Below are positions 36,318-64,000 of a DNA stretch of 64,000 nt, piece after piece. Numbering within the stretch: the stretch's first letter is position 1; each line of letters begins with the position of its first letter. Position numbers and translations under genes: made by a program. The DNA is taken from assembly GCA_963662445.1 (NCBI GenBank), contig OY759590.1, positions 3,520,249 to 3,584,248 of the forward strand, read 5' to 3'. Under the pieces are notes generated by a model. That model saw nothing but the letters and a program-made list of their open reading frames with translations, was not told where the DNA came from and ran no database searches. Source of the stretch: Desulfarculia bacterium (GTDB taxonomy: Bacteria > Desulfobacterota > Desulfarculia > Adiutricales > JAGVGV01).

Positions 36318-36929
36318 TCAGATGGAAACGGCCTTTAAAAAGAAGGCGGTTTGCAGCCGCAGATAGTCGGGCAGGGGCAGGCGCTTTTTGTAATGCCAGT
36401 TTTTGAGAGCCCAGGTGTGTCCGGCGATTATCATGTTATGGGCGATCAGGTCAGTGTCCATGGAAGAAAACCTTCCCTGGGCGATACCCTCTTCGAGTAT
36501 CTGCTGGAAAATCTTGACGTGCTCCATCTCCGCCGCCATTATCTTCTTCCGGCCATCCTTGTCCAGGGTGCGCGACTCCCGATAAACCAGGATGACCTTG
36601 ATCATGCATTCATCAACCAGGTTAAAGAAGACCTCCAGGGCTTTTTTCAGCTTGTCGGCCGGGTCTTTCAACTGGTCCAGCTGGGGCAGAATCCTCTCCT
36701 GGAATTTCCGTGTAAAGGCCTCCATTATCAGAAGCATGATATCGGATTTACGGCGGACGTAATGGTAGGTAACCGGGACGCTGATTCCGGCATCGGCGGC
36801 TATTTCCTCAACCGATGTCTGATGCAGACCTTTCTTTTCGTACAGTCCGCTGGCTGCTTCGATGATAAGATGCTTGATACTGTCGGCTTCAGCCTCCGAG
36901 ACGACACGGGTCTGGGCGTCTTGACTCAT
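36318..36929 (-). CDS. TetR/AcrR family transcriptional regulator
   Basis: N-terminal HTH 'KKGLHQTSVEEIAADAGISVPVTYHYVRRKSDI'. Confidence 0.85.
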   Translation of the reverse strand: MSQDAQTRVVSEAEADSIKHLIIEAASGLYEKKGLHQTSVEEIAADAGISVPVTYHYVRRKSDIMLLIMEAFTRKFQERILPQLDQLKDPADKLKKALEVFFNLVDECMIKVILVYRESRTLDKDGRKKIMAAEMEHVKIFQQILEEGIAQGRFSSMDTDLIAHNMIIAGHTWALKNWHYKKRLPLPDYLRLQTAFFLKAVSI

Positions 36930-53207: not shown

Positions 53208-53779
53208 AGCTTGTTGACGAACATGACCTCGTCCAGCGGCTTCTTGGGCACAAAATGCCTTCCCTGTTCATCCCGCCAGTATCTCACCGTGTCGCCCCGG
53301 TCCACGTAAAGCGGTTCTTCATCCGGGTAGCCCAGGGCCACCACCAGGTCGGGACGCAGGTAATCCGGGAGATGGAAGGTCTCGGTCACGGTCTGCGGAT
53401 TGAAGGAAAGAAGCACGCAGGAAGCCACGCCTTCGGCCAGACCGGCTATGAGCATGTTTTCCACGCTGAAGCCGACGTCGTATTTATAATGCGTGGCCTT
53501 GGCCCTTTCATCGACCAGCACGATGACATAGGCCGCCGGTTCCCGCCCGGCCGGAGGATTACCGGCCGGATTGATGTAGGCCGCCCACCTGAGGGTGGGA
53601 AAGATGATGCCGCGAAGTTCCGGCTCGGTGACCACCAGGTAGCGGAGAGGCTGGAGATTGGCCCCGGTGGGAGCCAGGCGGGCCGCGTCGACCATGCGTT
53701 CCAGCACATCCAGCGGTACCGGTTTGGGCTGAAAACTGCGTACCGAACGGCGGTTCTTCATCAGTTCATGAACATTCAT
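53204..53779 (-). CDS. Nitroreductase family protein
   Basis: 'MKNRRSVRSF' and 'APTGANLQPLRYLVV'. Start ATG 53779 overlaps the upstream stop (ATGA). Confidence 0.8.
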   Translation of the reverse strand: MNVHELMKNRRSVRSFQPKPVPLDVLERMVDAARLAPTGANLQPLRYLVVTEPELRGIIFPTLRWAAYINPAGNPPAGREPAAYVIVLVDERAKATHYKYDVGFSVENMLIAGLAEGVASCVLLSFNPQTVTETFHLPDYLRPDLVVALGYPDEEPLYVDRGDTVRYWRDEQGRHFVPKKPLDEVMFVNKL

Positions 53780-55533
53780 GACATACCTCCCTGAAAAACG
53801 GCCCACAAAAGAGACAGGATTCCGGCCAGGATGAAATTGGCGTCTATCATGGCCTCGGATATGGTCCCCCCGACAATCTGGTCGCGCCGGAACAGGAAAA
53901 GATGAAGGCCGGCGTAAGCGGCGCAGACCAGCAGGACCAGAGCCAGCGACGTGAGCAGCCCGGCGGCCCAGCCGGCGGTCAGGGCCACGGCCAGCACAAG
54001 GACCACCAGCTTGAGCAGATTTATGGTCTTGGCCTCGCCGATGATGATGGGGATGGTTTCCCGCCCGGCTATGCGGTCTCCCTGTATTTCAAAAATATCG
54101 CCAAAGGCGCTGCGGATGAACACCAGCAGAAAACAGATCAGACCGACCACGGCCGTGGACCAGGTCAACTCGCCTTCGGGGGAAAGGGCCGGCACGCAGC
54201 TCAGGGCCAGAGCCCAGCCGCCGGAAAGAAAAAGAGTCTTGGAACTGGGGATGTCCTTCAGACGGCGCAGCCTGATGCGCTTCGCCAGGGAGTGAGGCAC
54301 CAGGGGCACGGCGTACAACAGGCCGAGGGTGCTCATGAAAGCCAGCAGGCTGAAGACTCCCCACCCCAGGGTCAGGCCCAGCAGCAGACCGGCCAGGGCC
54401 GAAAAAATTCCGGAGCTGATAAGAATGTGCCGATAAGTTTCCAGAAACAGGGCCCGGTCCGGGTCGTTGTACTGGCTGGCTTCCTTGTCCAGAAACATAT
54501 TGAGCATATGCATGGCGTGAACATAGAAGAAGGCTACGCCGAAAAAGGCCGGGCGGGGTTCGATCCCCTGAAGCATGGCTGCAGCCAGACAGAGAATACC
54601 GGCCCCCAGGGCCACGAAAAAATTGCTCAGGACCATGTTGCGGAGCAGACGGTGCGCCTTGCCCTTGATGGAAGGATCGCCTTTCTGGGCAAAACGTTCC
54701 AGAGCCCGAAAGAGGCGGATAATCATCCAGTTGGGCGTTGACGCCCCGGCCGTGATGCCCACGGTGCCGACCCCGGCCAGCCAGGCCTGGTCCAGTTCGT
54801 CCTCGGTCTCCACGTGGATGGTCTTGGCCCCTTCCTCCTCGGCCACCGCCGCCAGCCTGGTCGTATTTCCGCTGTTGTGGCCGCCGACTATGACCATGGC
54901 GTCCACTTCACGGGCCAGCCGCCGGGCCTCTTCCTGACGGCGCTGAGTGGCTCCGCAGATGGTGTCGAAAACCAGAGCCTCCGGCCATCGGGTCGTAACA
55001 GCCTTGACGACATCCTCCCACATCTGCTGGTTCTGGGTAGTCTGGGCGACCAGAATGACCTTGTCCCGGTCAGGCAGGGCGGCCACGTCTTCCGGCTTGT
55101 TGAAAGTCAGACCTTTTCCTTCTGAATACCCCAGCAGCCCGACCACTTCGGGGTGATCTGGATTTCCCCAGATTACGGGCGTGTATCCCTTCTCGGCATG
55201 CCTCTTGATAATCATCTGAACCCGGATGACCCGGGGGCAGGTGGCGTCTATAATATCCAGCCCGGTCTCTTCCAGCCTCCGTCTTTCCTCGGGCGGCACG
55301 CCATGGGCGCGAATGATGACCGTGCCCTTTTCCAGGTCATGCAGGTCGGAAGCGCCCGACTGCAGAACGCGCAGACCTTTGTTGCGCAGCAGGTCCAGGG
55401 CCTGGGGGTTGTGGATCAGCGGACCGTAGGAATAGATGGCCCCCGGCCGGTTGTTGACCGCTTCCAGGGCCAGTTCCATGGCCCGGCGGACCCCCATGCA
55501 GAAACCCGAGCTTTTGGCCAGAACGACTTTCAT
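53776..55533 (-). CDS. ispH: 4-hydroxy-3-methylbut-2-enyl diphosphate reductase (IspH/LytB) fused to a C-terminal UbiA-like polytopic membrane domain
   Basis: aa 1-~285 are IspH ('GFCMGVRRA', 'GPLIHNP', 'DATCPRV', 'GGHNSGNT', 'TAGASTP'). aa ~300-585 hold about 8 TM helices with 'FGDIFEIQGDRIAGRETIPI', resembling the second Asp-rich motif of UbiA prenyltransferases. Confidence 0.85.
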   Translation of the reverse strand: MKVVLAKSSGFCMGVRRAMELALEAVNNRPGAIYSYGPLIHNPQALDLLRNKGLRVLQSGASDLHDLEKGTVIIRAHGVPPEERRRLEETGLDIIDATCPRVIRVQMIIKRHAEKGYTPVIWGNPDHPEVVGLLGYSEGKGLTFNKPEDVAALPDRDKVILVAQTTQNQQMWEDVVKAVTTRWPEALVFDTICGATQRRQEEARRLAREVDAMVIVGGHNSGNTTRLAAVAEEEGAKTIHVETEDELDQAWLAGVGTVGITAGASTPNWMIIRLFRALERFAQKGDPSIKGKAHRLLRNMVLSNFFVALGAGILCLAAAMLQGIEPRPAFFGVAFFYVHAMHMLNMFLDKEASQYNDPDRALFLETYRHILISSGIFSALAGLLLGLTLGWGVFSLLAFMSTLGLLYAVPLVPHSLAKRIRLRRLKDIPSSKTLFLSGGWALALSCVPALSPEGELTWSTAVVGLICFLLVFIRSAFGDIFEIQGDRIAGRETIPIIIGEAKTINLLKLVVLVLAVALTAGWAAGLLTSLALVLLVCAAYAGLHLFLFRRDQIVGGTISEAMIDANFILAGILSLLWAVFQGGMS

Positions 55534-56555
55534 GCCACAGCCGCCTTTTCCTCCTGAAAATCGGCCAGCCAGGCGAAGTATTCTTCCAGCTTGGCCACCA
55601 GGACATCAAAATCCTTGACCTGGTTGATCGACTGCCGGAAGGCCGTTGAATTGGGCAGGCCCTTGGTGTACCACATCATGACGCCGCGCAGCATATACAG
55701 AGCCTTGGGCAGGCCGTAGAAATCCCTGAGGGTGAGCGCATGGGTCAGGGCTGTGCGGTATCTCTCTTCCAGCGCCGGTTCGGGAGCCGGGCGTCCGTCC
55801 AGCATGGCCAGAGCCCGCGAAAAAATCCAGGGGTCGCCCATGGCTCCCCGCCCGATCATGATGCCCGCGCACCCCGTCTCCTTGAGCCGGGTCAGGACGT
55901 GCTGAGGCCTGGTCACGTCGCCGCTGCCGATGACGGGCTTCGGGAAGACCTCGGCCAGCCGGGCGACAAAGCTCCAATCAGCCTCGCCGCTGAACGACTG
56001 CACCGCGTACCGGGGATGCAGGGTGACCGCATCCACGCCGCACCCGGCCAGTATGGGAGCCAGTTCCATGATCTCGCCCTCGCCAGGCCGCCAGCCGCAG
56101 CGGGTCTTGACGGTCAGAGGCACGGTCACTTCGCGGCGCACGGCAGTGACGATTTCCTCGATCAGTTTGAAGTCCTTCAGCAAAGCCGCCCCGGCCCCGT
56201 GACGGACGACCTTGCGCGCCGGACAGCCCATGTTCAGGTCGATAACGTCCGCCCCGGCCTCCTGGGCTATGGCCGCTCCACGCACCAGCCAGGAAGGATT
56301 GGCGCCGAAAAGCTGAACCGCCAAGGGGCGTTCCACCGGGTCGGAAGCCATGAGCTTCATGGTCTTGGGACCGCGCTGGCCCATTCCGGCCGCGCTGACC
56401 ATTTCGGTGAAAACCAGGGCCGCGCCCTGTTCCTTGGCCAACAGGCGGAAAGGCAGATTGGTGATGCCGGCCATGGGAGCCAGAATCAACGGATTGTCCA
56501 GGCGCAATGCGCCGATATTGAAACCTGTATCAGTCATATTCCTCAAATCAATCAA
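55530..56555 (-). CDS. dusB: tRNA-dihydrouridine synthase
   Basis: 'LAPMAGITNLPFR', 'DLNMGCP' and 'TVKTRCGW' are Dus motifs. The start is TTG 56555 or ATG 56537. Confidence 0.9.
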   Translation of the reverse strand: MIDLRNMTDTGFNIGALRLDNPLILAPMAGITNLPFRLLAKEQGAALVFTEMVSAAGMGQRGPKTMKLMASDPVERPLAVQLFGANPSWLVRGAAIAQEAGADVIDLNMGCPARKVVRHGAGAALLKDFKLIEEIVTAVRREVTVPLTVKTRCGWRPGEGEIMELAPILAGCGVDAVTLHPRYAVQSFSGEADWSFVARLAEVFPKPVIGSGDVTRPQHVLTRLKETGCAGIMIGRGAMGDPWIFSRALAMLDGRPAPEPALEERYRTALTHALTLRDFYGLPKALYMLRGVMMWYTKGLPNSTAFRQSINQVKDFDVLVAKLEEYFAWLADFQEEKAAVA

Positions 56556-56735
56556 TATTAGACCATCGGGACGCCCAATTCAATCCCGGTCCCGAAAGTC
56601 CTCCCTTCCCCCCGCGGCAGTGCGGGAGCGACATGGTTATATACACCATAAATTCAGGCGGGGCGCGCTAAAAATGCAGGAACGGAGTCTACGCCATTGA
56701 CAAAACCTATGGGGCTTGTCATCATGTGCTTCAAG

Positions 56736-56833
56736 GGAAGTGCCTAGTCACCTGGTGGGGCTCCTGGACTTCAAATCCAGTGGCGGGCGCTGGAAACGTC
56801 CGCGGTGGGTTCGATTCCCATGCACTTCCGCCA
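56736..56833 (+). tRNA. selC: tRNA-Sec (anticodon UCA)
   Basis: 98 nt. 8-bp acceptor stem GGAAGTGC/GCACTTCC. Anticodon stem-loop CTGGA-CTTCAAA-TCCAG. Long variable arm, T-arm GGTTCGATTCC, encoded CCA. Near-colinear with my recollection of E. coli selC. Confidence 0.92.
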
Positions 56834-57322
56834 CAATGATTTCAAGGGGTTAGCCGTCGCTTAACCAATCTAAGCCAAATCGCTCTTTAGCTTATATAAG
56901 TTAAATATCTGGCGAAATCCGGCTTCAAAAGTATCGCAAAAGTATAGCATCCGCCGGACTTACTCCCCTCCCCTTTTCACTCACCATGGACAGGCTATCG
57001 CTCTCCCTGCCCCGCCCAAATATATAAAGAGAAAGCCTTGGCATTTAGGGATCTAATTTAACCCTGTTATCATGAAATTAAGATTGACGGCCTGAAGCCA
57101 GCCAATGCCTTGAACCATCTCCAAAAGCAAGCCACGTTCAAGCCATACTCCGGCACCAGAACGCCTTAACAACAACTCGTTACCTGCATAACCTGCGTGG
57201 GATTAGAGCGTGTCTCAACGAGGTGTTCTCGTACCCCGGATTTAACTGCGCCCCAAAACCACAAGAAGCCGAAATAAGCCCGAAAATCGGCCCCAAATCG
57301 CCCTCTGAATGGTGTAAAAAGC

Positions 57323-57334
57323 TTGACATATAAT
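57323..57334 (+). promoter_or_regulatory. Promoter elements upstream of the AbiEi-like gene
   Basis: TTGACATATAAT is a perfect -35 hexamer abutting a perfect -10 hexamer, so only one can be used with a partner elsewhere. No SD precedes ATG 57358, so the leader may be short or absent. Confidence 0.3.
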
Positions 57335-57357
57335 CCTGATTGTGCACCATATTACAC

Positions 57358-57966
57358 ATGACGGAAAAGCAAACAGAAGAGGACAGGCTTCTTGCTCTGG
57401 CCAAAGAGAAGGGCGTCATCCGGGTGAAGGACCTCAAGGCCGAGGGGATTCACCCGGAGCACCTACGACGCCTAACCAGAAGAGGCTGGCTCACAAAGGT
57501 GGGGAGAGGGCTTTATGTCGACGCTGACAAGGACCTGACGGCCAGCCACTCCCTTGCTCTGGCGAGCAAATGGCTTCCGGATGGAGTGATTTGCCTTCTG
57601 TCAGCTCTTCGTTTCCACGAGCTCGGCACCCAAAACCCTTTTGAAGTGTGGATTGCGCTCGACCGGCGGGCAGCGAAGCCCAAGATTGACCTTCCACCAC
57701 TACGGGTGATGAGGTTTTCCGGCGCTGCACTGACGGAAGGTATTGAGGAGCAGATCATTGAAGGCGTTTCGGTCAAAATGTACACCTCGGCCAAAACCGT
57801 GGCTGACTGCTTCAAATATCGCAACAAAATCGGTCTGGACGTGGCCATAGAGGCTCTGCGGGATTGCCTTCGTCAGCGCAAATGCTCCAATGACGACCTT
57901 TACCGCTTCGCCAAGGTTTGCAGGGTCTGGAATGTGATGCGGCCATACATGGAGGCCCTTGCCTGA
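57358..57966 (+). CDS. AbiEi-family (type IV TA antitoxin-like) transcriptional regulator
   Basis: 'LLALAKEKGVIRVKDLKAEGIHPEHLRRLTRRGWLTKVGRGLYV' is the AbiEi_4-type N-terminal wHTH. The C-terminal 'SALRFHELGTQNPFEVWIAL...' is typical of the family. Confidence 0.75.
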   Translation: MTEKQTEEDRLLALAKEKGVIRVKDLKAEGIHPEHLRRLTRRGWLTKVGRGLYVDADKDLTASHSLALASKWLPDGVICLLSALRFHELGTQNPFEVWIALDRRAAKPKIDLPPLRVMRFSGAALTEGIEEQIIEGVSVKMYTSAKTVADCFKYRNKIGLDVAIEALRDCLRQRKCSNDDLYRFAKVCRVWNVMRPYMEALA

Positions 57967-58059
57967 AGTGGGGGACAGATACTACCAGCCAATTACAGCA
58001 CTCGCCTTGTTCACCCTCTATACATAGCAGCGTAATGTCTTGAAAAAACAACACATTTA

Positions 58060-58088
58060 TTGACAGATTGATTGCTGATGTAATAAAA
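58060..58088 (+). promoter_or_regulatory. Candidate promoter for the DUF3800 gene in an AT-rich spacer
   Basis: TTGACA, 15-17 nt, TAATAAAA. Confidence 0.3.
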
Positions 58089-58156
58089 TAAAGTGTTTTT
58101 CGTGGGGAAGATCTTTTCTGAACAATCGTATACAAGGGGTATTCGTAATAAATATT

Positions 58157-59083
58157 ATGCCTTACGTATACCAACAGATGGGGCCGGATACAGAAAAACC
58201 GCGGCAAGATGCGCCATATCTTGCCTATGCTGATGAGTCTTCCTGGAACACAGGCCGATTCAGAAGTATCGCCCTTGCTACTCTTCAATCGACTGATGCC
58301 GAAGATCTGAGGAACGAGCTTGTCGCTCTCTTGGATGAGTCAAATGTCCAAGAGTTCAAGTGGCAGAAGCTGAAGAAGGCGAAATACAGGTTTCCGGCTA
58401 AAAAACTGGTTGATTTCACTTTCAAGTATTCAGATACAAAACAACTTCGGCTTGACGTACTCACCTGGGATACGCACGACTCTCGACATGAAATCATTGG
58501 ACGTGATGACAATGCCAACCTTGGTCGAATGTACTACCACCTGTTCAGGAGTGTCCTAACAAGGCGGTGGCCGGAAGGAGCGTGTTGGTATCTGTATCCT
58601 GACGAGCACACATCCCTTGATTGGCCCGCAATCAGGCAATGCCTGGAATACAAGGGCATCCAGTTCGACTTGGCAGGCGAACAACAGCAATCCTGGTTTC
58701 GACTGGAAGGAATGAAAGAGCTTTTCAACATTCACGACCTTTGCGAGTGTCGGTCTCATGAAGAGCCCTTCATCCAACTAGCTGACCTTTTCAGTGGTTT
58801 GGCTGCCTACTCATATGAAAGTTATGAGAAATGGTGTTCATGGCGGGATGATTCCCAGATGTGTCTCCCTGGATTTGGCGAGGCTGTAAAGATGAGTAAT
58901 GCGGACTGGGAAAGATGCTGCATACTGAACTACCTGAATAAAAAATGTAAGGCAAGAAGGCTTGGGGTTGCGTTGAACTCCGAAAAAGGCTTATTTTCGC
59001 ATAATCCAGACCAATCACCGAACTTTTGGCGATACGAACCGCAGCACGAGTTGGATAGGGCTCCAACGAAATTTTCTGAATGA
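58157..59083 (+). CDS. DUF3800-like protein
   Basis: 308 aa with lower G+C than its neighbours. The N-terminal 'YLAYADESS' and C-terminal 'FIQLADLFSGLAAY' match the DES / QxAD motif pair I recall for DUF3800. The stop overlaps ATG 59080 of hsdR (ATGA). Confidence 0.6.
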   Translation: MPYVYQQMGPDTEKPRQDAPYLAYADESSWNTGRFRSIALATLQSTDAEDLRNELVALLDESNVQEFKWQKLKKAKYRFPAKKLVDFTFKYSDTKQLRLDVLTWDTHDSRHEIIGRDDNANLGRMYYHLFRSVLTRRWPEGACWYLYPDEHTSLDWPAIRQCLEYKGIQFDLAGEQQQSWFRLEGMKELFNIHDLCECRSHEEPFIQLADLFSGLAAYSYESYEKWCSWRDDSQMCLPGFGEAVKMSNADWERCCILNYLNKKCKARRLGVALNSEKGLFSHNPDQSPNFWRYEPQHELDRAPTKFSE

Positions 59084-61878
59084 ACCATGAGGGCTGGGGG
59101 TATGAGATGACGCCGGAGCAAAAGGCCAGAGCGGCTATTGACCAGCAGCTTGAGCAGTGCGGGTGGCAGGTCCAGGACCACAAATCCATGAACATCATGG
59201 CCGGCCGGGGGGTGGCCATTCGGGAGTTCCCCCTGAAAACCGGTTTCGCCGACTACATGCTTTATGTGGACGGCAAGGCCATCGGCGTGATCGAAGCCAA
59301 ACCCCAAGGCCATACCCTGGTCGGCGTGGAAGCCCAATCCGCCAAATACACATCTGGTCTGCCGGACATGCTGCCGCATTATCATTTGCCCCTACCGTTC
59401 GCCTACGAGTCCACCGGAACCATCACCCAGTTCACCAACGGCCTGGACCCGGCCCCGCGCAGCCGGGAGGTTTTCACCTTCCATCGGCCGGAAGAACTCC
59501 TCCGCCTGGTCAAGCTCGACGGACAGCTCCGGGCCAAGCTCAAGGAACTGCCGCCCCTGAACGAGGAAGGACTCTGGCGGGTCCAGGTGGAGACCATTCT
59601 CAACCTGGAAAAGTCCCTGGCCGAGGCACGGCCCAGAGCCCTCATCCAGATGGCCACCGGCAGCGGCAAGACGTTCACCGCCTGTTCCTTCTGCTACCGG
59701 CTCATCAAGTTCGCCAAGGCCAAGCGTATCCTCTTCCTGGTCGACCGCAACAACCTCGGCAAGCAAGCCTTGACCGAGTTTCAGCAGTACGTCAGCCCTT
59801 ACACCAACTACAAGTTCAGCGAGGAATACAACGTCCAGCGCCTCACCTCGAACGCCATAGACCCGGCCAGCAAGCTGGTCATCACCACGGTTCAGCGGCT
59901 CTATTCCATCCTCAAGGGCGAACCGGCCTTTGAGGAAGAGGCGGAAGAGCGCTCCATGTTCGAAGTCGACTCCCCATTGGCCAAGAAACCCTTGCCGGTG
60001 GTGTACAGCGAGCGCATCCCCATCGAGCATTTCGACTTCATCGTGGTGGACGAATGCCACCGCTCGATTTACAACCTTTGGCGTCAGGTCCTGGAATACT
60101 TCGACGCCGTCCTCATCGGCCTGACCGCCACACCCAGCACCCAGACCATCGGCTTTTTCAACGGCAACGTGGTTCAGGACTACTCCCACGAAAAGGCTGT
60201 GGTCGACGGCGTGAACGTCGGATACGACGTATACGGCATCCGCACGGAAGTCGGCTCGGACGGCGCTACGCTGCTGAAAAAGGCCGGGCGATACGTGCCG
60301 CGCCGGGACCGGCGCACCCGCAAGAAACGCCTGGCCGAACTGGACGACGACCTGACCTATACCGCCAGCCAGCTCGACCGGGACGTGGTCAACCCCAGCC
60401 AAATCCGGTTGGTGATACAGACCTTCCGGGACAAGCTCTTTACCGAAATATTCCCCGGCCGCACCGAAGTCCCCAAAACTCTGGTTTTCGCCAAGACCGA
60501 CCTTCATGCCGACGACATCGTCAAGGTCATCCGGGAGGAGTTCGGCAAAGGCAACGAGTTCTGTCAGAAAATCACCTATCGCACCACCGGCAGGAAGCCG
60601 GACGAACTGCTGAACGAGTTTCGGAACTCCTACCATCCCCGCATCGCCGTGAGCGTGGACATGATTGCCACGGGCACGGACGTCAAGCCCCTGGAATGCC
60701 TGCTGTTCATGCGCAACATCCAATCCGCCTCGTATTTCGAACAGATGAAGGGCCGAGGGACAAGGGTCATCAGCTCCGACGACCTTGGGGCCGTCACGCC
60801 GGACAACAAGCACAAAGTCCGCTTTGTCATCGTGGATGCCGTGGGAGTCTGCGAAAACGACAAGACCAACTCCAAGCCGCTCGACCGCAAGCCGTCCTTT
60901 TCCCTGGACAAGCTGCTCCAGATGGTGGCTCAAGGCGTCGTGCACGCCGATGTGGTTTCGACTCTGGCCGCCAGGCTGGCCCGCCTGAACCAGGAAATAG
61001 ACGAGAAGGACGAAAAGGACATCGCTTCCGAGGCCGGTGGGCGCTCGCTGGCCGATTTGACGGCTAGTTTGCTCGGCAGCATCGACCCGGACAAGACCGA
61101 GGCCAAGGCTCGGGAGATGTATTTCCTTTCGCCCGCTGATGAGCCGGCCGCTGAGCAGCTTGACCAGGCCGAGCAAGCCAACATGACCGAGGCTTTGAAG
61201 CCGTTTCACAACCCCAGGCTCCGGGACCTGCTGGTCAAAATCAAGGCTTCTCTGGAACAGGTCATCGACGAAATCACCCAGGACAAGCTGCTGGCCGCCG
61301 AATTCGACGCCGCAGCCAAAGAGCAGGCCCGTTCCAAGCTGAGCGATTTCCGCAAGTTTCTGGACGATAACAGGGATGAAATCGAGGCCCTTCAGGTCCT
61401 TTACAGCAAGCCGTATCGGCACGGACTGCGCTACGGCCAGCTCAAGGAACTGGCCGCCGCCATCGAACGGCCCCCGCTATCCATTCCCCAGCCGGAAGAC
61501 CGCCTCTGGCGGCTGTACGAGGCCGTGGAGCCGGAAAAGGTCAAGGGGCCGGGCGGCAAAGCTCTGGTTGACTTGATCGCCATCGTGCGGCATGCTCTGA
61601 ATCCCGCCCACCCCCTCACCCCCGTGGCCATGACCGTGGCCGAGCGGTACGAAGAGTGGCTGGCGGAAAAGGAAGCGGAGGGAATCGTGTTCACCCTGGA
61701 GCAGCGCAAATGGCTGGACGCCATCAAAGACCATATCGCCAGCAGCCTGGAAATCAAAACAGACGACTTCGAATACGCGCCGTTCAACAACATGGGCGGC
61801 CTGGGCAAGGTCCATCAGCTTTTTGGCGACCAACTGCCGGCCATCATAGATGAACTGAATGTGAGGTTGGCGGCGTGA
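59080..61878 (+). CDS. hsdR: Type I restriction enzyme R subunit (EcoEI/type IB-like C-terminus)
   Basis: N-terminal 'IDQQLEQCGWQV...ADYMLYVDGKAIGVIEAK'. Helicase motifs 'QMATGSGKTFTA', 'VVDECHRS', 'GLTATP'. EcoEI_R_C-like tail. ATG 59107 is an alternative start. Confidence 0.9.
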   Translation: MNHEGWGYEMTPEQKARAAIDQQLEQCGWQVQDHKSMNIMAGRGVAIREFPLKTGFADYMLYVDGKAIGVIEAKPQGHTLVGVEAQSAKYTSGLPDMLPHYHLPLPFAYESTGTITQFTNGLDPAPRSREVFTFHRPEELLRLVKLDGQLRAKLKELPPLNEEGLWRVQVETILNLEKSLAEARPRALIQMATGSGKTFTACSFCYRLIKFAKAKRILFLVDRNNLGKQALTEFQQYVSPYTNYKFSEEYNVQRLTSNAIDPASKLVITTVQRLYSILKGEPAFEEEAEERSMFEVDSPLAKKPLPVVYSERIPIEHFDFIVVDECHRSIYNLWRQVLEYFDAVLIGLTATPSTQTIGFFNGNVVQDYSHEKAVVDGVNVGYDVYGIRTEVGSDGATLLKKAGRYVPRRDRRTRKKRLAELDDDLTYTASQLDRDVVNPSQIRLVIQTFRDKLFTEIFPGRTEVPKTLVFAKTDLHADDIVKVIREEFGKGNEFCQKITYRTTGRKPDELLNEFRNSYHPRIAVSVDMIATGTDVKPLECLLFMRNIQSASYFEQMKGRGTRVISSDDLGAVTPDNKHKVRFVIVDAVGVCENDKTNSKPLDRKPSFSLDKLLQMVAQGVVHADVVSTLAARLARLNQEIDEKDEKDIASEAGGRSLADLTASLLGSIDPDKTEAKAREMYFLSPADEPAAEQLDQAEQANMTEALKPFHNPRLRDLLVKIKASLEQVIDEITQDKLLAAEFDAAAKEQARSKLSDFRKFLDDNRDEIEALQVLYSKPYRHGLRYGQLKELAAAIERPPLSIPQPEDRLWRLYEAVEPEKVKGPGGKALVDLIAIVRHALNPAHPLTPVAMTVAERYEEWLAEKEAEGIVFTLEQRKWLDAIKDHIASSLEIKTDDFEYAPFNNMGGLGKVHQLFGDQLPAIIDELNVRLAA

Positions 61879-63473
61879 GTAAAATCGGAAGCATTCCCGG
61901 TAGCTGGGAAACACCATGTGTTGAGGATGTTTGTGAAATCATTTCTGGTTATGGGTTCCCCAAAAAACTCCAAGGAAAATCAGTTGGCGACATTCCATTT
62001 TTCAAAGTTGGAGATATCTCGGAAGCGTGGCAAAAGAATAAAGTCGGGCTGGATATAGCAAACCATTACCTCAATTGGCAGGAAATGAAATCATTGAAAG
62101 CCCAGCCTCTACCACCAAACACTGTGGTATTTGCTAAAATCGGCGCTGCTATCGGCCTAAACAGACGAGCCATATTGAAACAACCTTCGTTAGTAGACAA
62201 CAACGTTATGGGTGTTTGGGCAGAATCGAGGTTTCTCAATACGTTTTTTTTGTTCCACTTTTTCTGTACTCTACGATTCGGAGAAAACTCCAGAGCTTCG
62301 ATAGTCCCATCGATACGAAAATCTGATGTTGGCAATGTTCAACTGCCGCTTCCACCTCTGAACGAACAACATCGCATCGTCTCCAAAATCGAAGAGCTCT
62401 TTTCCAAGCTGGATGCGGGAGTGGCCGCCTTGGAGCGGGTCAAGGCCAACCTGAAGCGGTATCGGGCTTCCGTGCTCAAGGCCGCCGTGGAAGGCAAGCT
62501 GACCGAGAAATGGCGGGCCGAGAACCCGGACCGGGAACCGGCTTCCAGGCTTCTCGAACGCATCCTGATTGAGCGCCGCCATAAATGGGAAGAAGAACAA
62601 CTGGCCAACTACCAGGCCAAGGGCCAGAAACCGCCCAAGGACTGGCGCTTCAAATACAAGGAGCCCGCCAAGCCGGACACCGCCGACCTGCCGGACTTGC
62701 CGGAGGGGTGGTGTTGGGCGACTGTGGACCAGATTTCCTGTTTCGTGACAAGCGGGTCTAGAGGTTGGGCTAAGTACTACTCCGAATCCGGCCCACTATT
62801 CATACGAGCCCAGGATATAAATAAAGATTGGCTGGACCTCACCAATATAGCCCACGTAAATGTCCCTGAATCGTCTGAAAAATTCAGAACCAGAACCCAA
62901 CAAGGAGACCTGCTTATTACCATCACGGGAGCGAATGTAACGAAGTCGGCGCTGGTGAGAGACGAAATAGGAGAGGCCTATGTGAGTCAGCACGTGGCGT
63001 TAGTTCATCCCGTAACGAGTATTCTTTTTGACTATGTTTTTCACTGGGTCATTTGTCCATCAAAAGGTCGTAATGAGCTTGAAAAACTGGCTTATGGAGC
63101 GGGAAAACCAGGACTAAACCTCGATAACGTCAGAACCTTATGCGTTGCTTTGCCGCCTAATGAGGAGGCAATAGAAATCGTCAACAGTTTGACCTCCTCG
63201 TTAGAAACGATTGAAAAGACCGAAATAGAAATTCGAAGGAATGCCCTGCGAGCTGCCCGCCTCCGTCAAGCCATCCTCAAACATGCCTTTGAAGGCAAGC
63301 TCGTTCCCCAGGACCCGAGCGACGAACCGGCCGCAAAACTATTGGAGCGCATCCGGGCGGAAAGAGCCAAAGCCGAAGACGCTCCCCAAACTGTAACCCG
63401 CAAGCCCCGCCGCCAAACGGCCCGGGCGAAGACAAGCCGCAACACCGCTGCGGGCCGGAATCCCGTGGAGTAA
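61875..63473 (+). CDS. hsdS: Type I restriction-modification specificity subunit
   Basis: Two lower-G+C target-recognition domains. Each is followed by a conserved helical spacer ('LPPLNEQHRIVSKIEELFSKLD...' and 'LPPNEEAIEIVNSLTSSLE...RQAILKHAFEGKLV'). It overlaps the hsdR stop (GTGA). Confidence 0.9.
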   Translation: MSKIGSIPGSWETPCVEDVCEIISGYGFPKKLQGKSVGDIPFFKVGDISEAWQKNKVGLDIANHYLNWQEMKSLKAQPLPPNTVVFAKIGAAIGLNRRAILKQPSLVDNNVMGVWAESRFLNTFFLFHFFCTLRFGENSRASIVPSIRKSDVGNVQLPLPPLNEQHRIVSKIEELFSKLDAGVAALERVKANLKRYRASVLKAAVEGKLTEKWRAENPDREPASRLLERILIERRHKWEEEQLANYQAKGQKPPKDWRFKYKEPAKPDTADLPDLPEGWCWATVDQISCFVTSGSRGWAKYYSESGPLFIRAQDINKDWLDLTNIAHVNVPESSEKFRTRTQQGDLLITITGANVTKSALVRDEIGEAYVSQHVALVHPVTSILFDYVFHWVICPSKGRNELEKLAYGAGKPGLNLDNVRTLCVALPPNEEAIEIVNSLTSSLETIEKTEIEIRRNALRAARLRQAILKHAFEGKLVPQDPSDEPAAKLLERIRAERAKAEDAPQTVTRKPRRQTARAKTSRNTAAGRNPVE

Positions 63474-63479
63474 TCAATC

Positions 63480-64000
63480 TTGAGCGCCGAAACTCAGAAC
63501 ATAGTCAACCGGGCCTGGAACTTCGCCCACGTCCTGCGGGACGACGGGCTGTCGTACATGGCGTACACCGAACAGATCACCTTTCTGCTGTTTCTGAAGA
63601 TGGCCCACGAACAGACCCAAACGCCCTACAACCGCCAGCCGATTGTGCCGCCGGAGCTGGGCTGGCCGAGTTTATTGGAAAAGGACGGCCAGGAACTTGA
63701 AGTGCATTACCGCCACATTCTGGAAACCCTGGGCCGGGAAAAGGGGATGCTGGGGGAAATCTTCAAGCGGGCCAAGCCGGAGATTCAGAATCCGGCCATC
63801 CTGAAAAAGCTGATCGTGGACCTGATCGACACGGAAAACTGGATGATGATGGAGGCCGACGTCAAGGGCGACATCTATGAAGGGCTGCTGGCCAAGAGCG
63901 CGGCGGAGTCGTCCAAGGGAGCCGGCCAATACTTCACCCCGCGTGAGCTCATCAAGGCCGTCGTGGAGGTCATGCGGCCCGGCCCGGAAGAAACCATCTG
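63480..64000 (+). CDS. hsdM: Type I restriction-modification methyltransferase subunit, N-terminal part (3' end outside window)
   Basis: TTG 63480 opens a frame that runs to the window edge. HsdM_N motifs 'LRDDGLSYMAYTEQITFLLFLKM' and 'GDIYEGLL', then 'GQYFTPRELI'. It is absent from the ORF track because no stop falls within the window. Confidence 0.85.
   Translation, partial: MSAETQNIVNRAWNFAHVLRDDGLSYMAYTEQITFLLFLKMAHEQTQTPYNRQPIVPPELGWPSLLEKDGQELEVHYRHILETLGREKGMLGEIFKRAKPEIQNPAILKKLIVDLIDTENWMMMEADVKGDIYEGLLAKSAAESSKGAGQYFTPRELIKAVVEVMRPGPEETI

What the first reader, a model, noticed from the sequence alone, without database searches (positions are those of the whole stretch)
57358..59083. 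Orphan AbiEi-type antitoxin with no AbiEii toxin; a DUF3800 gene occupies the toxin position
Seen: the 57358..57966 product has the AbiEi N-terminal wHTH and the family-typical C-terminal domain. The next gene on the same strand lacks AbiEii nucleotidyltransferase features; I find no GGTAL-like or DxD NTase motif.

Established: abiEi/abiEii are normally adjacent, often overlapping, and AbiEi autoregulates its operon.

Inference, two options:
- The toxin was lost and AbiEi persists as a regulator of the island.
- AbiEi is re-paired with a non-canonical partner (DUF3800), which would be a new type IV-like TA or Abi pairing.

The 190-nt gap argues for separate transcription, which weakens the second option.
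Basis: partly seen in the sequence, partly recalled or inferred. Interest (0 to 1): 0.6.

Follow-up and report, generated by a model that had tools for sequence, protein, structure and literature searches.

The report
Orphan AbiEi beside DUF3800-led restriction operon
An antitoxin gene that has lost its toxin sits next to, but is not partnered with, a predicted RNase H-like nuclease gene that leads a type I restriction-modification operon, so this is ordinary gene shuffling in a defence island and not a new toxin-antitoxin pair.

Summary
Gene 57358-57966 is a full-length AbiEi and 58157-59083 is a DUF3800 protein. They are separated by 190 nt, and no AbiEii is detectable anywhere in the 64-kb window.

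The proposed new pairing does not hold:
- None of 79 DUF3800-clade loci analysed has an AbiEi directly upstream.
- None of 84 AbiEi-clade loci has a DUF3800 homologue.
- 73 of the 80 AbiEi loci that can be judged carry a canonical AbiEii.

Its stop overlaps the hsdR start, and a near-consensus promoter lies in the gap. The operon sits in a low-GC island directly after tRNA-Sec.

This DUF3800 clade is recurrent type I restriction-modification (RM) cargo:
- Typical order is hsdM-hsdS-DUF3800-hsdR, often with 4-bp overlaps.
- RM subunits flank it in 30 of 79 loci and in 11 of the 12 closest relatives, across bacteria and archaea.
- It models as an RNase HII-like fold with conserved carboxylates.

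DNA homology to the closest canonical abiE operon stops about 9 nt before the abiEi stop, so abiEii was replaced or deleted. The AbiEi protein and its clade-typical operator are intact, and that operator is absent from the RM promoter.

Verdict: an orphaned antitoxin/autorepressor next to an RM-associated nuclease candidate. Low-to-moderate interest.

The parts
56736..56833 (+). tRNA-Sec (anticodon TCA). Likely integration site and left boundary of the low-GC defence island.
   Evidence: ARAGORN. Rfam RF01852 at 73.6 bits, E 1.5e-14. GC drops directly downstream. No repeat of the tRNA 3' end occurs inside the window, so the far end of the island lies beyond 64000.
57312..57357 (+). abiEi promoter and operator. 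Inverted repeat GTGTAAA (57312-57318) and ATTACAC (57351-57357) flanks a TTGACA -35 hexamer (57323-57328). The right arm abuts the ATG.
   Evidence: The same architecture (TGTGTAAA - TTGACA - TTTTACAC-ATG) is conserved upstream of the closest AbiEi homologues, and the arms co-vary in other sub-clades. Within the island this is the only such pair; the 64-kb window has one other, unrelated match at 36710-36753. DNA homology to L081 starts at 57312. Binding by AbiEi is inferred, not shown.
57358..57966 (+). abiEi: full-length AbiEi antitoxin/autorepressor (202 aa) without a cognate abiEii.
   Evidence: Pfam AbiEi_4 and PADLOC AbiEi, full length. 58-76% identical to 21 homologues and carries every residue that is invariant among them. 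No AbiEii in the window.
57967..58156 (+). 190-nt AT-rich spacer. It holds a near-consensus sigma-70-like promoter (TTGACA-18-TAAAAT, 58060-58089) for the downstream operon.
   Evidence: The promoter scan gives 11 of 12 matches, and no + strand terminator is called in the gap. No Rfam family, including the DUF3800 RNA motifs, matches. The RNA fold is no more stable than shuffles (z = +1.37). No AbiEi-operator half-site with one mismatch or fewer is present.
58157..59083 (+). DUF3800 gene (308 aa, or 301 aa from ATG 58178). Predicted RNase HII-like nuclease and first cistron of the RM operon.
   Evidence: Pfam PF12686 and a partial PADLOC PDC-M04A hit at 4.1e-11. Conserved D26-E27, D100, D105, D108, D149 and Q207xxD210. 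AF2 model pLDDT 86.6, pTM 0.86. Best PDB matches are RNase HII 1eke and RNase H2A 3puf.
59080..61878 (+). hsdR: type I restriction subunit R, most similar to the EcoAI/EcoEI type. It starts either at the ATG that overlaps the DUF3800 stop (ATGA) or at ATG 59107, 23 nt after it and behind a GGGGG.
   Evidence: Pfam ResIII, EcoEI_R_C and SWI2_SNF2. PADLOC REase_I. The NCBIfam PRK11448 and EcoAI models hit below their cut-offs. Sequence read.
61875..63473 (+). hsdS: specificity subunit. Its GTG start overlaps the hsdR stop by 4 nt.
   Evidence: Pfam Methylase_S with two stretches. PADLOC Specificity_I at 9.1e-96. Sequence.
63480..64000 (+). hsdM: 5' part only, cut off by the end of the window. 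TTG start 6 nt after the hsdS stop.
   Evidence: Pfam HsdM_N and N6_Mtase on 63489-63998. The only open frame and start are identified.

Best explanation
The finding covers two independent units placed side by side in a defence island that begins at tRNA-Sec.

Unit 1 is a remnant of a type IV AbiE toxin-antitoxin/abortive-infection module. The toxin gene abiEii was removed or replaced at the 3' end of abiEi. What remains is an intact AbiEi that most likely still binds the inverted repeat over its own promoter and represses itself. It has no toxin to neutralise in cis. It may still neutralise AbiEii toxins arriving in trans (anti-addiction), which is inference.

Unit 2 is a four-gene operon, DUF3800-hsdR-hsdS-hsdM, driven by its own promoter in the 190-nt gap. 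Its cistrons overlap or nearly touch. The DUF3800 protein is a metal-dependent RNase HII-like nuclease from a clade that travels as accessory cargo of type I RM operons.

My most likely mechanism for the DUF3800 protein is inferred, with about 0.3 probability. It would be a second-line effector coupled to the RM enzyme, in the way PrrC is coupled to EcoprrI. It would be silent while the RM complex is intact and would cleave nucleic acid (RNA or RNA/DNA hybrids) when a phage disables restriction. The alternative is that it is an independent defence nuclease that merely shares the operon.

Shown: gene identities, operon compactness, recurrence of the DUF3800-RM linkage, non-recurrence of AbiEi-DUF3800, the homology breakpoint, the fold.

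Inferred: loss rather than never-had, autorepression, nuclease activity, coupling to RM.
For: Operon compactness:
- ATGA overlap at 59080-59083.
- GTGA overlap at 61875-61878.
- 6-nt spacer before hsdM.
- Promoter TTGACA-18-TAAAAT in the gap.

DUF3800-RM linkage, from 80 genome loci fetched, of which 79 were usable for neighbour analysis:
- The three largest neighbour families are HsdR (23 loci, downstream, same strand), HsdS (21 loci, at position -1 or -2) and HsdM (12 loci).
- Pfam census: Methylase_S is the top upstream family (19 members) and HSDR_N the top downstream family (16 members).
- 30 of 79 loci overall have an RM subunit nearby, and 19 of 37 loci with at least 4 kb on both flanks do.
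- 11 of the 12 closest relatives have one (loci L001-L012, read from the lists).
- 4-bp overlaps occur with hsdS in 11 loci and with hsdR in 5 loci.

AbiE side:
- Closest homologue loci L081-L084 carry abiEi-abiEii with a 4-bp overlap.
- Of the 80 loci that can be judged, 72 were paired by tblastn. L160 adds one more with a divergent AbiEii, giving 73.
- Homology breaks at 57957.
- The operator is conserved and unique to the abiEi promoter.
- The AbiEi sequence is undegraded.

Parallel cases:
- L144 has abiEi-abiEii embedded between hsdS and hsdR.
- L143 and L150 have an orphan abiEi followed by a HicA-HicB fusion in that same slot.

Fold: consistent with PMC7736814 and PMC10910872.

PrrC precedent and the 'guilt-by-embedding' origin of PADLOC PDC models: bioRxiv 10.1101/2024.01.29.577857.
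Against: - Only the window could be searched, so an AbiEii elsewhere in the 4.8-Mb genome is not excluded.
- No + strand terminator is predicted after abiEi. Read-through from the abiEi promoter into the RM operon is therefore possible, and AbiEi could influence it indirectly.
- About half of the well-flanked DUF3800 loci show no type I RM subunit nearby, so the protein does not strictly need RM.
- In the window the gene heads the operon, whereas relatives sit between hsdS and hsdR. The window's HsdR is also of a different family from those next to relatives: tblastn with it found none of them.
- A weak terminator-like hairpin lies at 59050-59067 inside the DUF3800 3' end. The scan's count is within chance (5 found against 3.0 +/- 2.0 expected).
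- Nothing here tests activity, toxicity or protein-protein contact.
Confidence: 0.72

Rival explanations
1. AbiEi has been re-paired with the DUF3800 nuclease as a new type IV-like toxin-antitoxin or Abi pair.
For: The two genes are on the same strand and adjacent, with DUF3800 in the position abiEii normally holds. DUF3800 is a plausible toxic nuclease. AbiEi is intact.
Against: - The adjacency is not recurrent. Of the 79 DUF3800 loci analysed, none has AbiEi directly upstream. The single AbiEi nearby (L071) is on the opposite strand, 2.5 kb away, and has its own AbiEii.
- None of 84 AbiEi loci has a DUF3800 homologue.
- A 190-nt gap with its own strong promoter separates the genes, where canonical pairs overlap by 4 bp.
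- DUF3800 is translationally linked to hsdR instead.
- No AbiEi operator is present at the DUF3800 promoter.
Confidence: 0.04
2. The orphan AbiEi has been co-opted as a transcriptional controller of the DUF3800-hsdRSM operon. It would play the role of a C-protein or of RptR (a repressor of RM operons), either through read-through from its autoregulated promoter or through a second, divergent operator.
For: - No terminator is predicted between abiEi and DUF3800.
- An imperfect inverted repeat (AACAACAC ... GTGTTTTT) brackets the 58060-58089 promoter (read from the sequence).
- Small repressors that control type I RM islands exist, such as RptR (PMC12255303).
- A second orphan AbiEi sits inside a type I RM operon in L143/L150.
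Against: - The clade-typical half-site GTGTAAA does not occur in the gap with one mismatch or fewer.
- The repeat in the gap has the opposite half-site orientation and lies in AT-rich DNA, where such matches are cheap.
- Only 3 of 27 AbiEi loci of at least 6 kb are near type I RM genes, so there is no general association.
- L143 and L150 carry the same sequence from two samples, so they are one event.
Confidence: 0.08
3. The system is not orphaned. The cognate AbiEii is encoded elsewhere in the genome (outside the window) and works with this AbiEi in trans.
For: AbiEi shows no decay and keeps its operator, which suggests ongoing selection. Only 64 kb of a 4.8-Mb contig could be searched.
Against: In 73 of 80 clade loci that can be judged, the toxin is immediately downstream and usually overlapping. 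Split abiE systems were not seen in this sample. The homology breakpoint at the abiEi 3' end indicates a local replacement.
Confidence: 0.1

Closest known systems
AbiE type IV toxin-antitoxin / abortive infection system (AbiEi wHTH antitoxin-autorepressor plus AbiEii nucleotidyltransferase toxin)
   Same: Full-length AbiEi of a clade that is normally paired with AbiEii. An inverted-repeat operator lies over the promoter, as described for AbiEi autoregulation (established knowledge; conserved architecture shown).
   Different: The defining toxin gene is absent, so this is a remnant and not a functioning AbiE system. Orphan antitoxin loci in general are widely reported in TA surveys (PMC6504116).
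PrrC / EcoprrI: a latent anticodon nuclease embedded between hsdS and hsdR of a type I RM operon and activated when phage Stp inhibits restriction
   Same: A nuclease gene is tightly linked to hsdR within a type I RM operon. Relatives of the window gene sit in the same hsdS-X-hsdR slot. PrrC is almost exclusively RM-embedded (10.1101/2024.01.29.577857).
   Different: The protein is unrelated. DUF3800 has an RNase HII-like fold, not an ABC-ATPase plus anticodon-nuclease architecture. Coupling to RM and a trigger are untested. Only 38-51% of the clade is RM-linked.
PADLOC phage defence candidate PDC-M04 (a two-gene cassette found embedded in BREX, DISARM or type I RM systems)
   Same: The window protein hits the PDC-M04A model (E 4.1e-11). 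PDC models were derived from genes embedded in RM-type systems.
   Different: The hit covers only residues 24-135 (half of the profile). No PDC-M04B partner is found among the neighbouring genes scanned. The candidate itself is not experimentally validated.
Other DUF3800 contexts: retron type VII effectors, the Cas12a2-associated TPR-DUF3800 protein, and DUF3800-associated ncRNA motifs I-XI
   Same: The same Pfam family with the DE and QxxD motifs and an RNase H2-like fold (PMC7736814, PMC10910872, PMC5737381).
   Different: There is no reverse transcriptase, Cas12 or TPR here. No DUF3800 RNA motif is found in the window or in 20 clade loci. This clade has an extra conserved C-terminal region of about 90 aa (NFW.Y.PQ...D.AP).

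Membership tests
AbiE (type IV TA / Abi) | AbiEi with N-terminal wHTH and C-terminal neutralisation domain | tested here: met
   Pfam AbiEi_4 at 4.6e-15. PADLOC AbiEi at 2.2e-85, covering residues 6-201.
AbiE (type IV TA / Abi) | Adjacent AbiEii nucleotidyltransferase toxin (PF08843) | tested here: not met
   The downstream gene has only a DUF3800 hit. tblastn with a clade AbiEii finds nothing in the window (best E 0.16).
AbiE (type IV TA / Abi) | Inverted repeats in the promoter for AbiEi autoregulation | tested here: met
   GTGTAAA and ATTACAC flank the -35 hexamer. The architecture is conserved and co-varies among homologues. This is sequence-level evidence only; binding was not tested.
AbiE (type IV TA / Abi) | Toxin toxicity neutralised by the antitoxin without direct binding | not testable with these tools
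   Needs expression experiments.
DUF3800 (PF12686), RNase H-like | Pfam model above the gathering score | tested here: met
   30.8 bits against a cut-off of 21, residues 22-218.
DUF3800 (PF12686), RNase H-like | N-terminal DE motif and C-terminal QxxD motif | tested here: met
   D26 and E27 are nearly invariant. Q207 and D210 are invariant across 29 sequences. The motifs are as described in PMC7736814.
DUF3800 (PF12686), RNase H-like | RNase H / RNase HII-like fold | tested here: met
   AF2 model with pLDDT 86.6. Foldseek top hits are 1eke (E 6.6e-5, probability 1.0, TM 0.53-0.56 normalised to the target) and 3puf. The TM scores are moderate.
DUF3800 (PF12686), RNase H-like | Nuclease activity | not testable with these tools
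   Needs biochemistry.
Type I restriction-modification operon | HsdR, HsdS and HsdM genes together | tested here: met
   ResIII plus EcoEI_R_C; Methylase_S with two stretches; HsdM_N plus N6_Mtase. hsdM is cut off by the window end.
PrrC-like RM-embedded latent nuclease | Gene embedded in or fused to a type I RM operon next to hsdR | tested here: met
   ATGA overlap with hsdR in the window. Relatives sit in the hsdS-X-hsdR slot.
PrrC-like RM-embedded latent nuclease | ABC-ATPase N-domain plus anticodon-nuclease C-domain | tested here: not met
   The only Pfam hit is DUF3800, and the fold is RNase HII-like. It is not a PrrC family member; the resemblance is in context only.
PrrC-like RM-embedded latent nuclease | Silenced by the RM complex and activated by an anti-restriction protein | not testable with these tools
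   Needs genetics and biochemistry.
PADLOC PDC-M04 | Both cassette genes (M04A and M04B) present | tested here: not met
   Only a partial M04A hit (E 4.1e-11). There is no M04B hit among AbiEi, HsdR and HsdS.
DUF3800-associated structured RNAs (Rfam DUF3800-I to XI) | A matching RNA motif next to the DUF3800 gene | tested here: not met
   No hit at E up to 10 in 56500-59300. None at gathering score in 20 clade loci. The gap folds no better than shuffles.

The most novel reading that the evidence does not exclude
The DUF3800 clade found here would be a widespread, uncharacterised, RM-coupled effector, present in more than 20 bacterial phyla and several archaeal orders. It would be an RNase HII-like nuclease that is translationally linked to hsdR and acts as a PrrC-like back-up, or as a helper that clears RNA/DNA hybrids or RNA when type I restriction is engaged or inhibited. 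The conserved clade-specific C-terminal region would be the docking or sensing part.
Probability: 0.25. Interest if true: 0.6.

Novelty: new member of a known kind. Interest (0 to 1): 0.3.

Why it matters
As proposed (a new AbiEi-DUF3800 toxin-antitoxin pairing), the finding does not stand, and an orphan antitoxin is ordinary.

The useful by-product is a clean, recurrent association between one DUF3800 clade (a predicted RNase HII-like nuclease) and type I RM operons of different families, across bacteria and archaea. Only a related family appears in PADLOC's list of untested 'embedded' defence candidates. If this nuclease is functionally coupled to restriction, it would be a second, structurally unrelated example of the PrrC principle: defence that watches over defence. 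It would also give DUF3800, a domain that recurs in retron and Cas12 contexts, a testable role.

The locus also illustrates how cargo slots next to hsdR turn over. The same slot holds abiEi-abiEii in L144, abiEi plus a HicA-HicB fusion in L143, and abiEi next to DUF3800 here.

Tried and rejected
1. Known DUF3800 RNA motifs in the 190-nt gap. An Rfam scan at E up to 10 found none, 20 related loci had none, and the gap RNA is not unusually stable. Rejected.
2. An AbiEii remnant or a distant copy in the window. tblastn gives only noise.
3. A shared operator between the abiEi promoter and the RM promoter. The repeat search found nothing convincing. The clade half-site is absent from the gap.
4. 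An att repeat of the tRNA-Sec 3' end, to delimit the island. None occurs in the window.
5. Identifying the source organism and reading beyond the window. The look-up of encoding contigs failed for HsdS, P0001 and P0121. The cluster look-up gave no name or accession.
7. The supplement of the PADLOC paper gives only family numbers for PDC-M04 (FAM_00014>>FAM_00043) and no description.
8. 'PDC-M04' is not mentioned in any paper of the library.
Full report
**What is there**

The region after the dihydrouridine synthase gene (55530-56555, minus strand; Pfam Dus) opens with a tRNA-Sec gene at 56736-56833. Directly after it, GC falls from 0.60-0.67 to 0.43-0.55.

Every gene from there to the end of the window is a defence-type gene on the + strand:
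- abiEi: 57358-57966.
- A DUF3800 gene: 58157-59083.
- hsdR: 59080-61878.
- hsdS: 61875-63473.
- The 5' part of hsdM: from 63480.

This is the usual picture of a genomic island at a tRNA gene. Its far end lies beyond the window, because no repeat of the tRNA 3' end is present.

**Check of the observation**

- The 202-aa product of 57358-57966 matches Pfam AbiEi_4 (E 4.6e-15). It matches PADLOC AbiEi profiles from end to end (E 2.2e-85).
- The next gene matches Pfam DUF3800 above the gathering score and nothing resembling AbiEii.
- The spacer is exactly 190 nt.
- I took the AbiEii of the closest canonical operon (L081) and searched the whole window by tblastn. The best hit has E = 0.16, which is noise.

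**Is AbiEi normally paired, and what happened here?**

The closest AbiEi homologue (P0122, 76% identity) lies in four metagenome contigs. Each has a 304-aa AbiEii (PF08843) overlapping its stop by 4 bp.

I judged 84 AbiEi-clade loci in all: 80 fetched by a metagenome scan plus the four P0122 loci.
- 72 had an AbiEii hit directly downstream, 4 had no room on the contig, and 8 had none.
- Of those 8, L160 carries a divergent AbiEii (PF08843, E 2.6e-28).
- That makes 73 of 80 paired and 7 unpaired: L086, L095 (which has what looks by eye like a transposase gene downstream, not checked against any profile), L121, L126, L143 and L150 (the same sequence), and L156.
- Orphans therefore exist in this clade but are the minority. 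Some loci are copies of one sequence, so these are counts of loci, not of independent events.

At the DNA level the window aligns with L081 from 57312 to 57957 at 76% identity. The alignment stops about 9 nt before the abiEi stop. In L081 the sequence continues ...GCCATGTCATGAGCAGG, where the abiEii ATG sits. The window has ...GCCCTTGCCTGAAGTGG, followed by unrelated AT-rich DNA. This is the signature of a replacement or deletion whose left edge is the abiEi/abiEii junction.

AbiEi itself is not decaying. It carries every residue that is invariant in 21 homologues.

**The AbiEi operator**

I lined up the 70 nt upstream of the start codons. The closest relatives share one architecture: TGTGTAAA, about 5 nt, TTGACA, about 24 nt, then TTTTACAC followed directly by ATG. 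In more distant sub-clades the two arms change together and stay complementary.
- The window has GTGTAAA (57312-57318), TTGACA (57323-57328) and ATTACAC (57351-57357).
- This fits what is established for AbiEi, which represses its own operon through inverted repeats.
- A search for the half-site with up to one mismatch finds the two arms at the abiEi promoter. It finds none in the 190-nt gap and none in the tRNA-abiEi spacer.
- There is therefore no sequence evidence that AbiEi acts on the next promoter.

**The DUF3800 gene belongs to the restriction operon**
- Its stop codon overlaps the first ATG of hsdR (ATGA at 59080-59083). If hsdR instead starts at ATG 59107, behind a GGGGG, the spacer is 23 nt.
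- hsdR and hsdS overlap by 4 nt, and hsdM follows 6 nt later.
- The gap upstream holds the best promoter-like site of the region: TTGACA-18-TAAAAT at 58060-58089, with 11 of 12 matches.
- The scan as a whole is at chance level (3 sites against 2.8 expected), so this is a plausible promoter, not a proven one.
- The gap has no Rfam match, including the eleven DUF3800-associated RNA motifs of Weinberg et al. (PMC5737381).
- It folds no better than shuffled sequence (z = +1.37).

**Relatives of the DUF3800 protein**

The protein search returned 172 proteins of about 300 aa. Apart from the identical self-match, the listed relatives are 36-49% identical. The alignment shows D26-E27, E66, D100, D105, D108, D149 and Q207xxD210. 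It also shows a conserved C-terminal stretch (NFW.Y.PQ...D.AP) outside the Pfam domain.

A genome scan gave 80 loci from more than 20 bacterial phyla and from Methanothrix, Methanoregula, Methanospirillum, Methanobacterium and Hadesarchaea. I called genes with a simple longest-ORF rule and clustered all neighbours within four genes of the DUF3800 gene. One locus (L028) was dropped, leaving 79.
- The three largest neighbour families are a protein of about 1024 aa downstream on the same strand (23 loci), a protein of about 415 aa directly upstream (21 loci), and a protein of about 530 aa further upstream (12 loci).
- Pfam identifies these as HsdR (HSDR_N, SWI2_SNF2, T1RH-like_C), HsdS (Methylase_S) and HsdM (HsdM_N, N6_Mtase).
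- An independent Pfam census of the two upstream and two downstream genes gives Methylase_S as the commonest upstream family (19 members) and HSDR_N as the commonest downstream family (16 members).
- 30 of 79 loci have at least one subunit nearby. Among loci with at least 4 kb on both sides the figure is 19 of 37. Among the 12 closest relatives (L001-L012) it is 11 (read from the lists).
- The typical order is hsdM-hsdS-DUF3800-hsdR. 4-bp overlaps occur with hsdS in 11 loci and with hsdR in 5.
- Other neighbours include type ISP enzymes, other methylases, BrxL, Abi_C, Fic and ORF6N proteins, which is a defence-island context.
- The HsdR proteins next to relatives belong to a different family from the window's EcoAI/EcoEI-like HsdR: tblastn with the window HsdR found none of them. 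The DUF3800 gene therefore moves between different type I systems.

**Test of the proposed pairing**

tblastn with the window AbiEi against the 80 DUF3800 loci found one hit, in L071. It is on the opposite strand, 2.5 kb downstream, and is followed by its own AbiEii. No AbiEi family appears among the 25 commonest upstream Pfam families; families seen only once may be missing from that list. None of the 84 AbiEi loci contains a DUF3800 homologue.

**What the DUF3800 protein is likely to do**

The AlphaFold2 model from the 29-sequence alignment is confident (pLDDT 86.6, pTM 0.86). Its best PDB matches are archaeal RNase HII (1eke, E 6.6e-5, probability 1.0) and human RNase H2A (3puf). This agrees with published predictions for other DUF3800 proteins (PMC7736814, PMC10910872).

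The conserved carboxylates lie where an RNase H-type active site is expected: D26-E27 on strand 1, D100/D105 on strand 3, D149 at the end of strand 4, and D210 on the following helix.

The protein weakly matches PADLOC PDC-M04A. That model was built from genes found embedded in BREX, DISARM or type I RM systems and proposed as untested defence candidates (bioRxiv 10.1101/2024.01.29.577857).

The best-known gene in the hsdS-X-hsdR slot is prrC. Its product is held inactive by EcoprrI and released by the T4 anti-restriction peptide Stp (as summarised in the same preprint). By analogy, I rank 'RM-coupled second-line nuclease' as the most likely role (about 0.3). Next comes 'independent defence nuclease sharing the operon'. 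Both are inference. About half of the clade is not next to RM genes, so coupling cannot be obligatory.

**Parallel cases**

Three AbiEi loci lie in type I RM operons.
- L144 has hsdS ... abiEi-abiEii-hsdR.
- L143 and L150 (one sequence, two samples) have hsdM-hsdS-ParE-x-abiEi, then a 158-aa HicA-HicB fusion overlapping abiEi by 4 bp, then hsdR.

The slot next to hsdR therefore collects toxin-antitoxin and Abi cargo and turns it over, sometimes leaving abiEi without abiEii. The window looks like another outcome of the same process.

**Verdict**

The 'toxin lost' reading is right. The 'new pairing' reading is not supported. The locus is an orphaned AbiEi autorepressor next to a DUF3800-led type I RM operon in a tRNA-Sec island.

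It counts as a new member of known kinds: an orphan antitoxin, and RM-embedded accessory candidates. The recurrent DUF3800-type I RM linkage is a worthwhile lead, but it is partly anticipated by PADLOC's candidate list.

Noticed in passing
window 53776-55533 (-): A 585-aa protein fuses IspH/LytB (PF02401, residues 3-278) to a UbiA-type membrane prenyltransferase domain (PF01040, residues 315-550).
   Followed up: no
window 57312-57357; L081-L164 upstream regions: The AbiEi clade operator is GTGTAAA...TTGACA...TTTACAC, with the right arm touching the ATG. That leaves no room for a Shine-Dalgarno sequence and suggests a leaderless mRNA. The arms co-vary between sub-clades, for example TTGCAAAT/ATTACGCAA and GTTACAAT/ATTGTAAC.
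   Followed up: partly
L143 3974-8596 (the same sequence as L150): An orphan AbiEi sits inside a type I RM operon. It is followed, with a 4-bp overlap, by a 158-aa single-chain HicA-HicB fusion, then hsdR carrying a C-terminal Schlafen/AlbA_2 domain. A ParE-type pair lies upstream.
   Followed up: partly
window 58830-59083 (DUF3800 residues about 225-308): A clade-specific C-terminal extension lies outside the Pfam DUF3800 model. It carries invariant F290, W291, Y293, Q296, D300, A302 and P303. Its function is unknown; it could be an interaction surface.
   Followed up: no
L001, L003, L005, L020 (between hsdS and hsdR): The DUF3800 gene shares the RM cargo slot with further accessory genes: Fic/DOC (L001), ORF6N (L001) and Abi_C proteins (L003, L005, L020).
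   Followed up: no
L021 4105-4337: A group II intron (RF02005, 152 bits) lies 1.6 kb downstream of the DUF3800 gene. The only HsdR-like ORF in that locus is a 94-aa fragment, which suggests a disrupted RM operon.
   Followed up: no
window 56834-57311: About 480 nt of non-coding, roughly 50% GC DNA lies between tRNA-Sec and the abiEi promoter. It has no integrase and no homology to the AbiEi loci. It includes a tandem CAAAAGTAT[C/A]G repeat at 56926-56947.
   Followed up: no
window 58047-58100: An imperfect inverted repeat (AACAACAC ... GTGTTTTT) brackets the predicted promoter of the DUF3800-hsdRSM operon. It could be an operator for an unknown regulator or a chance match in AT-rich DNA.
   Followed up: partly
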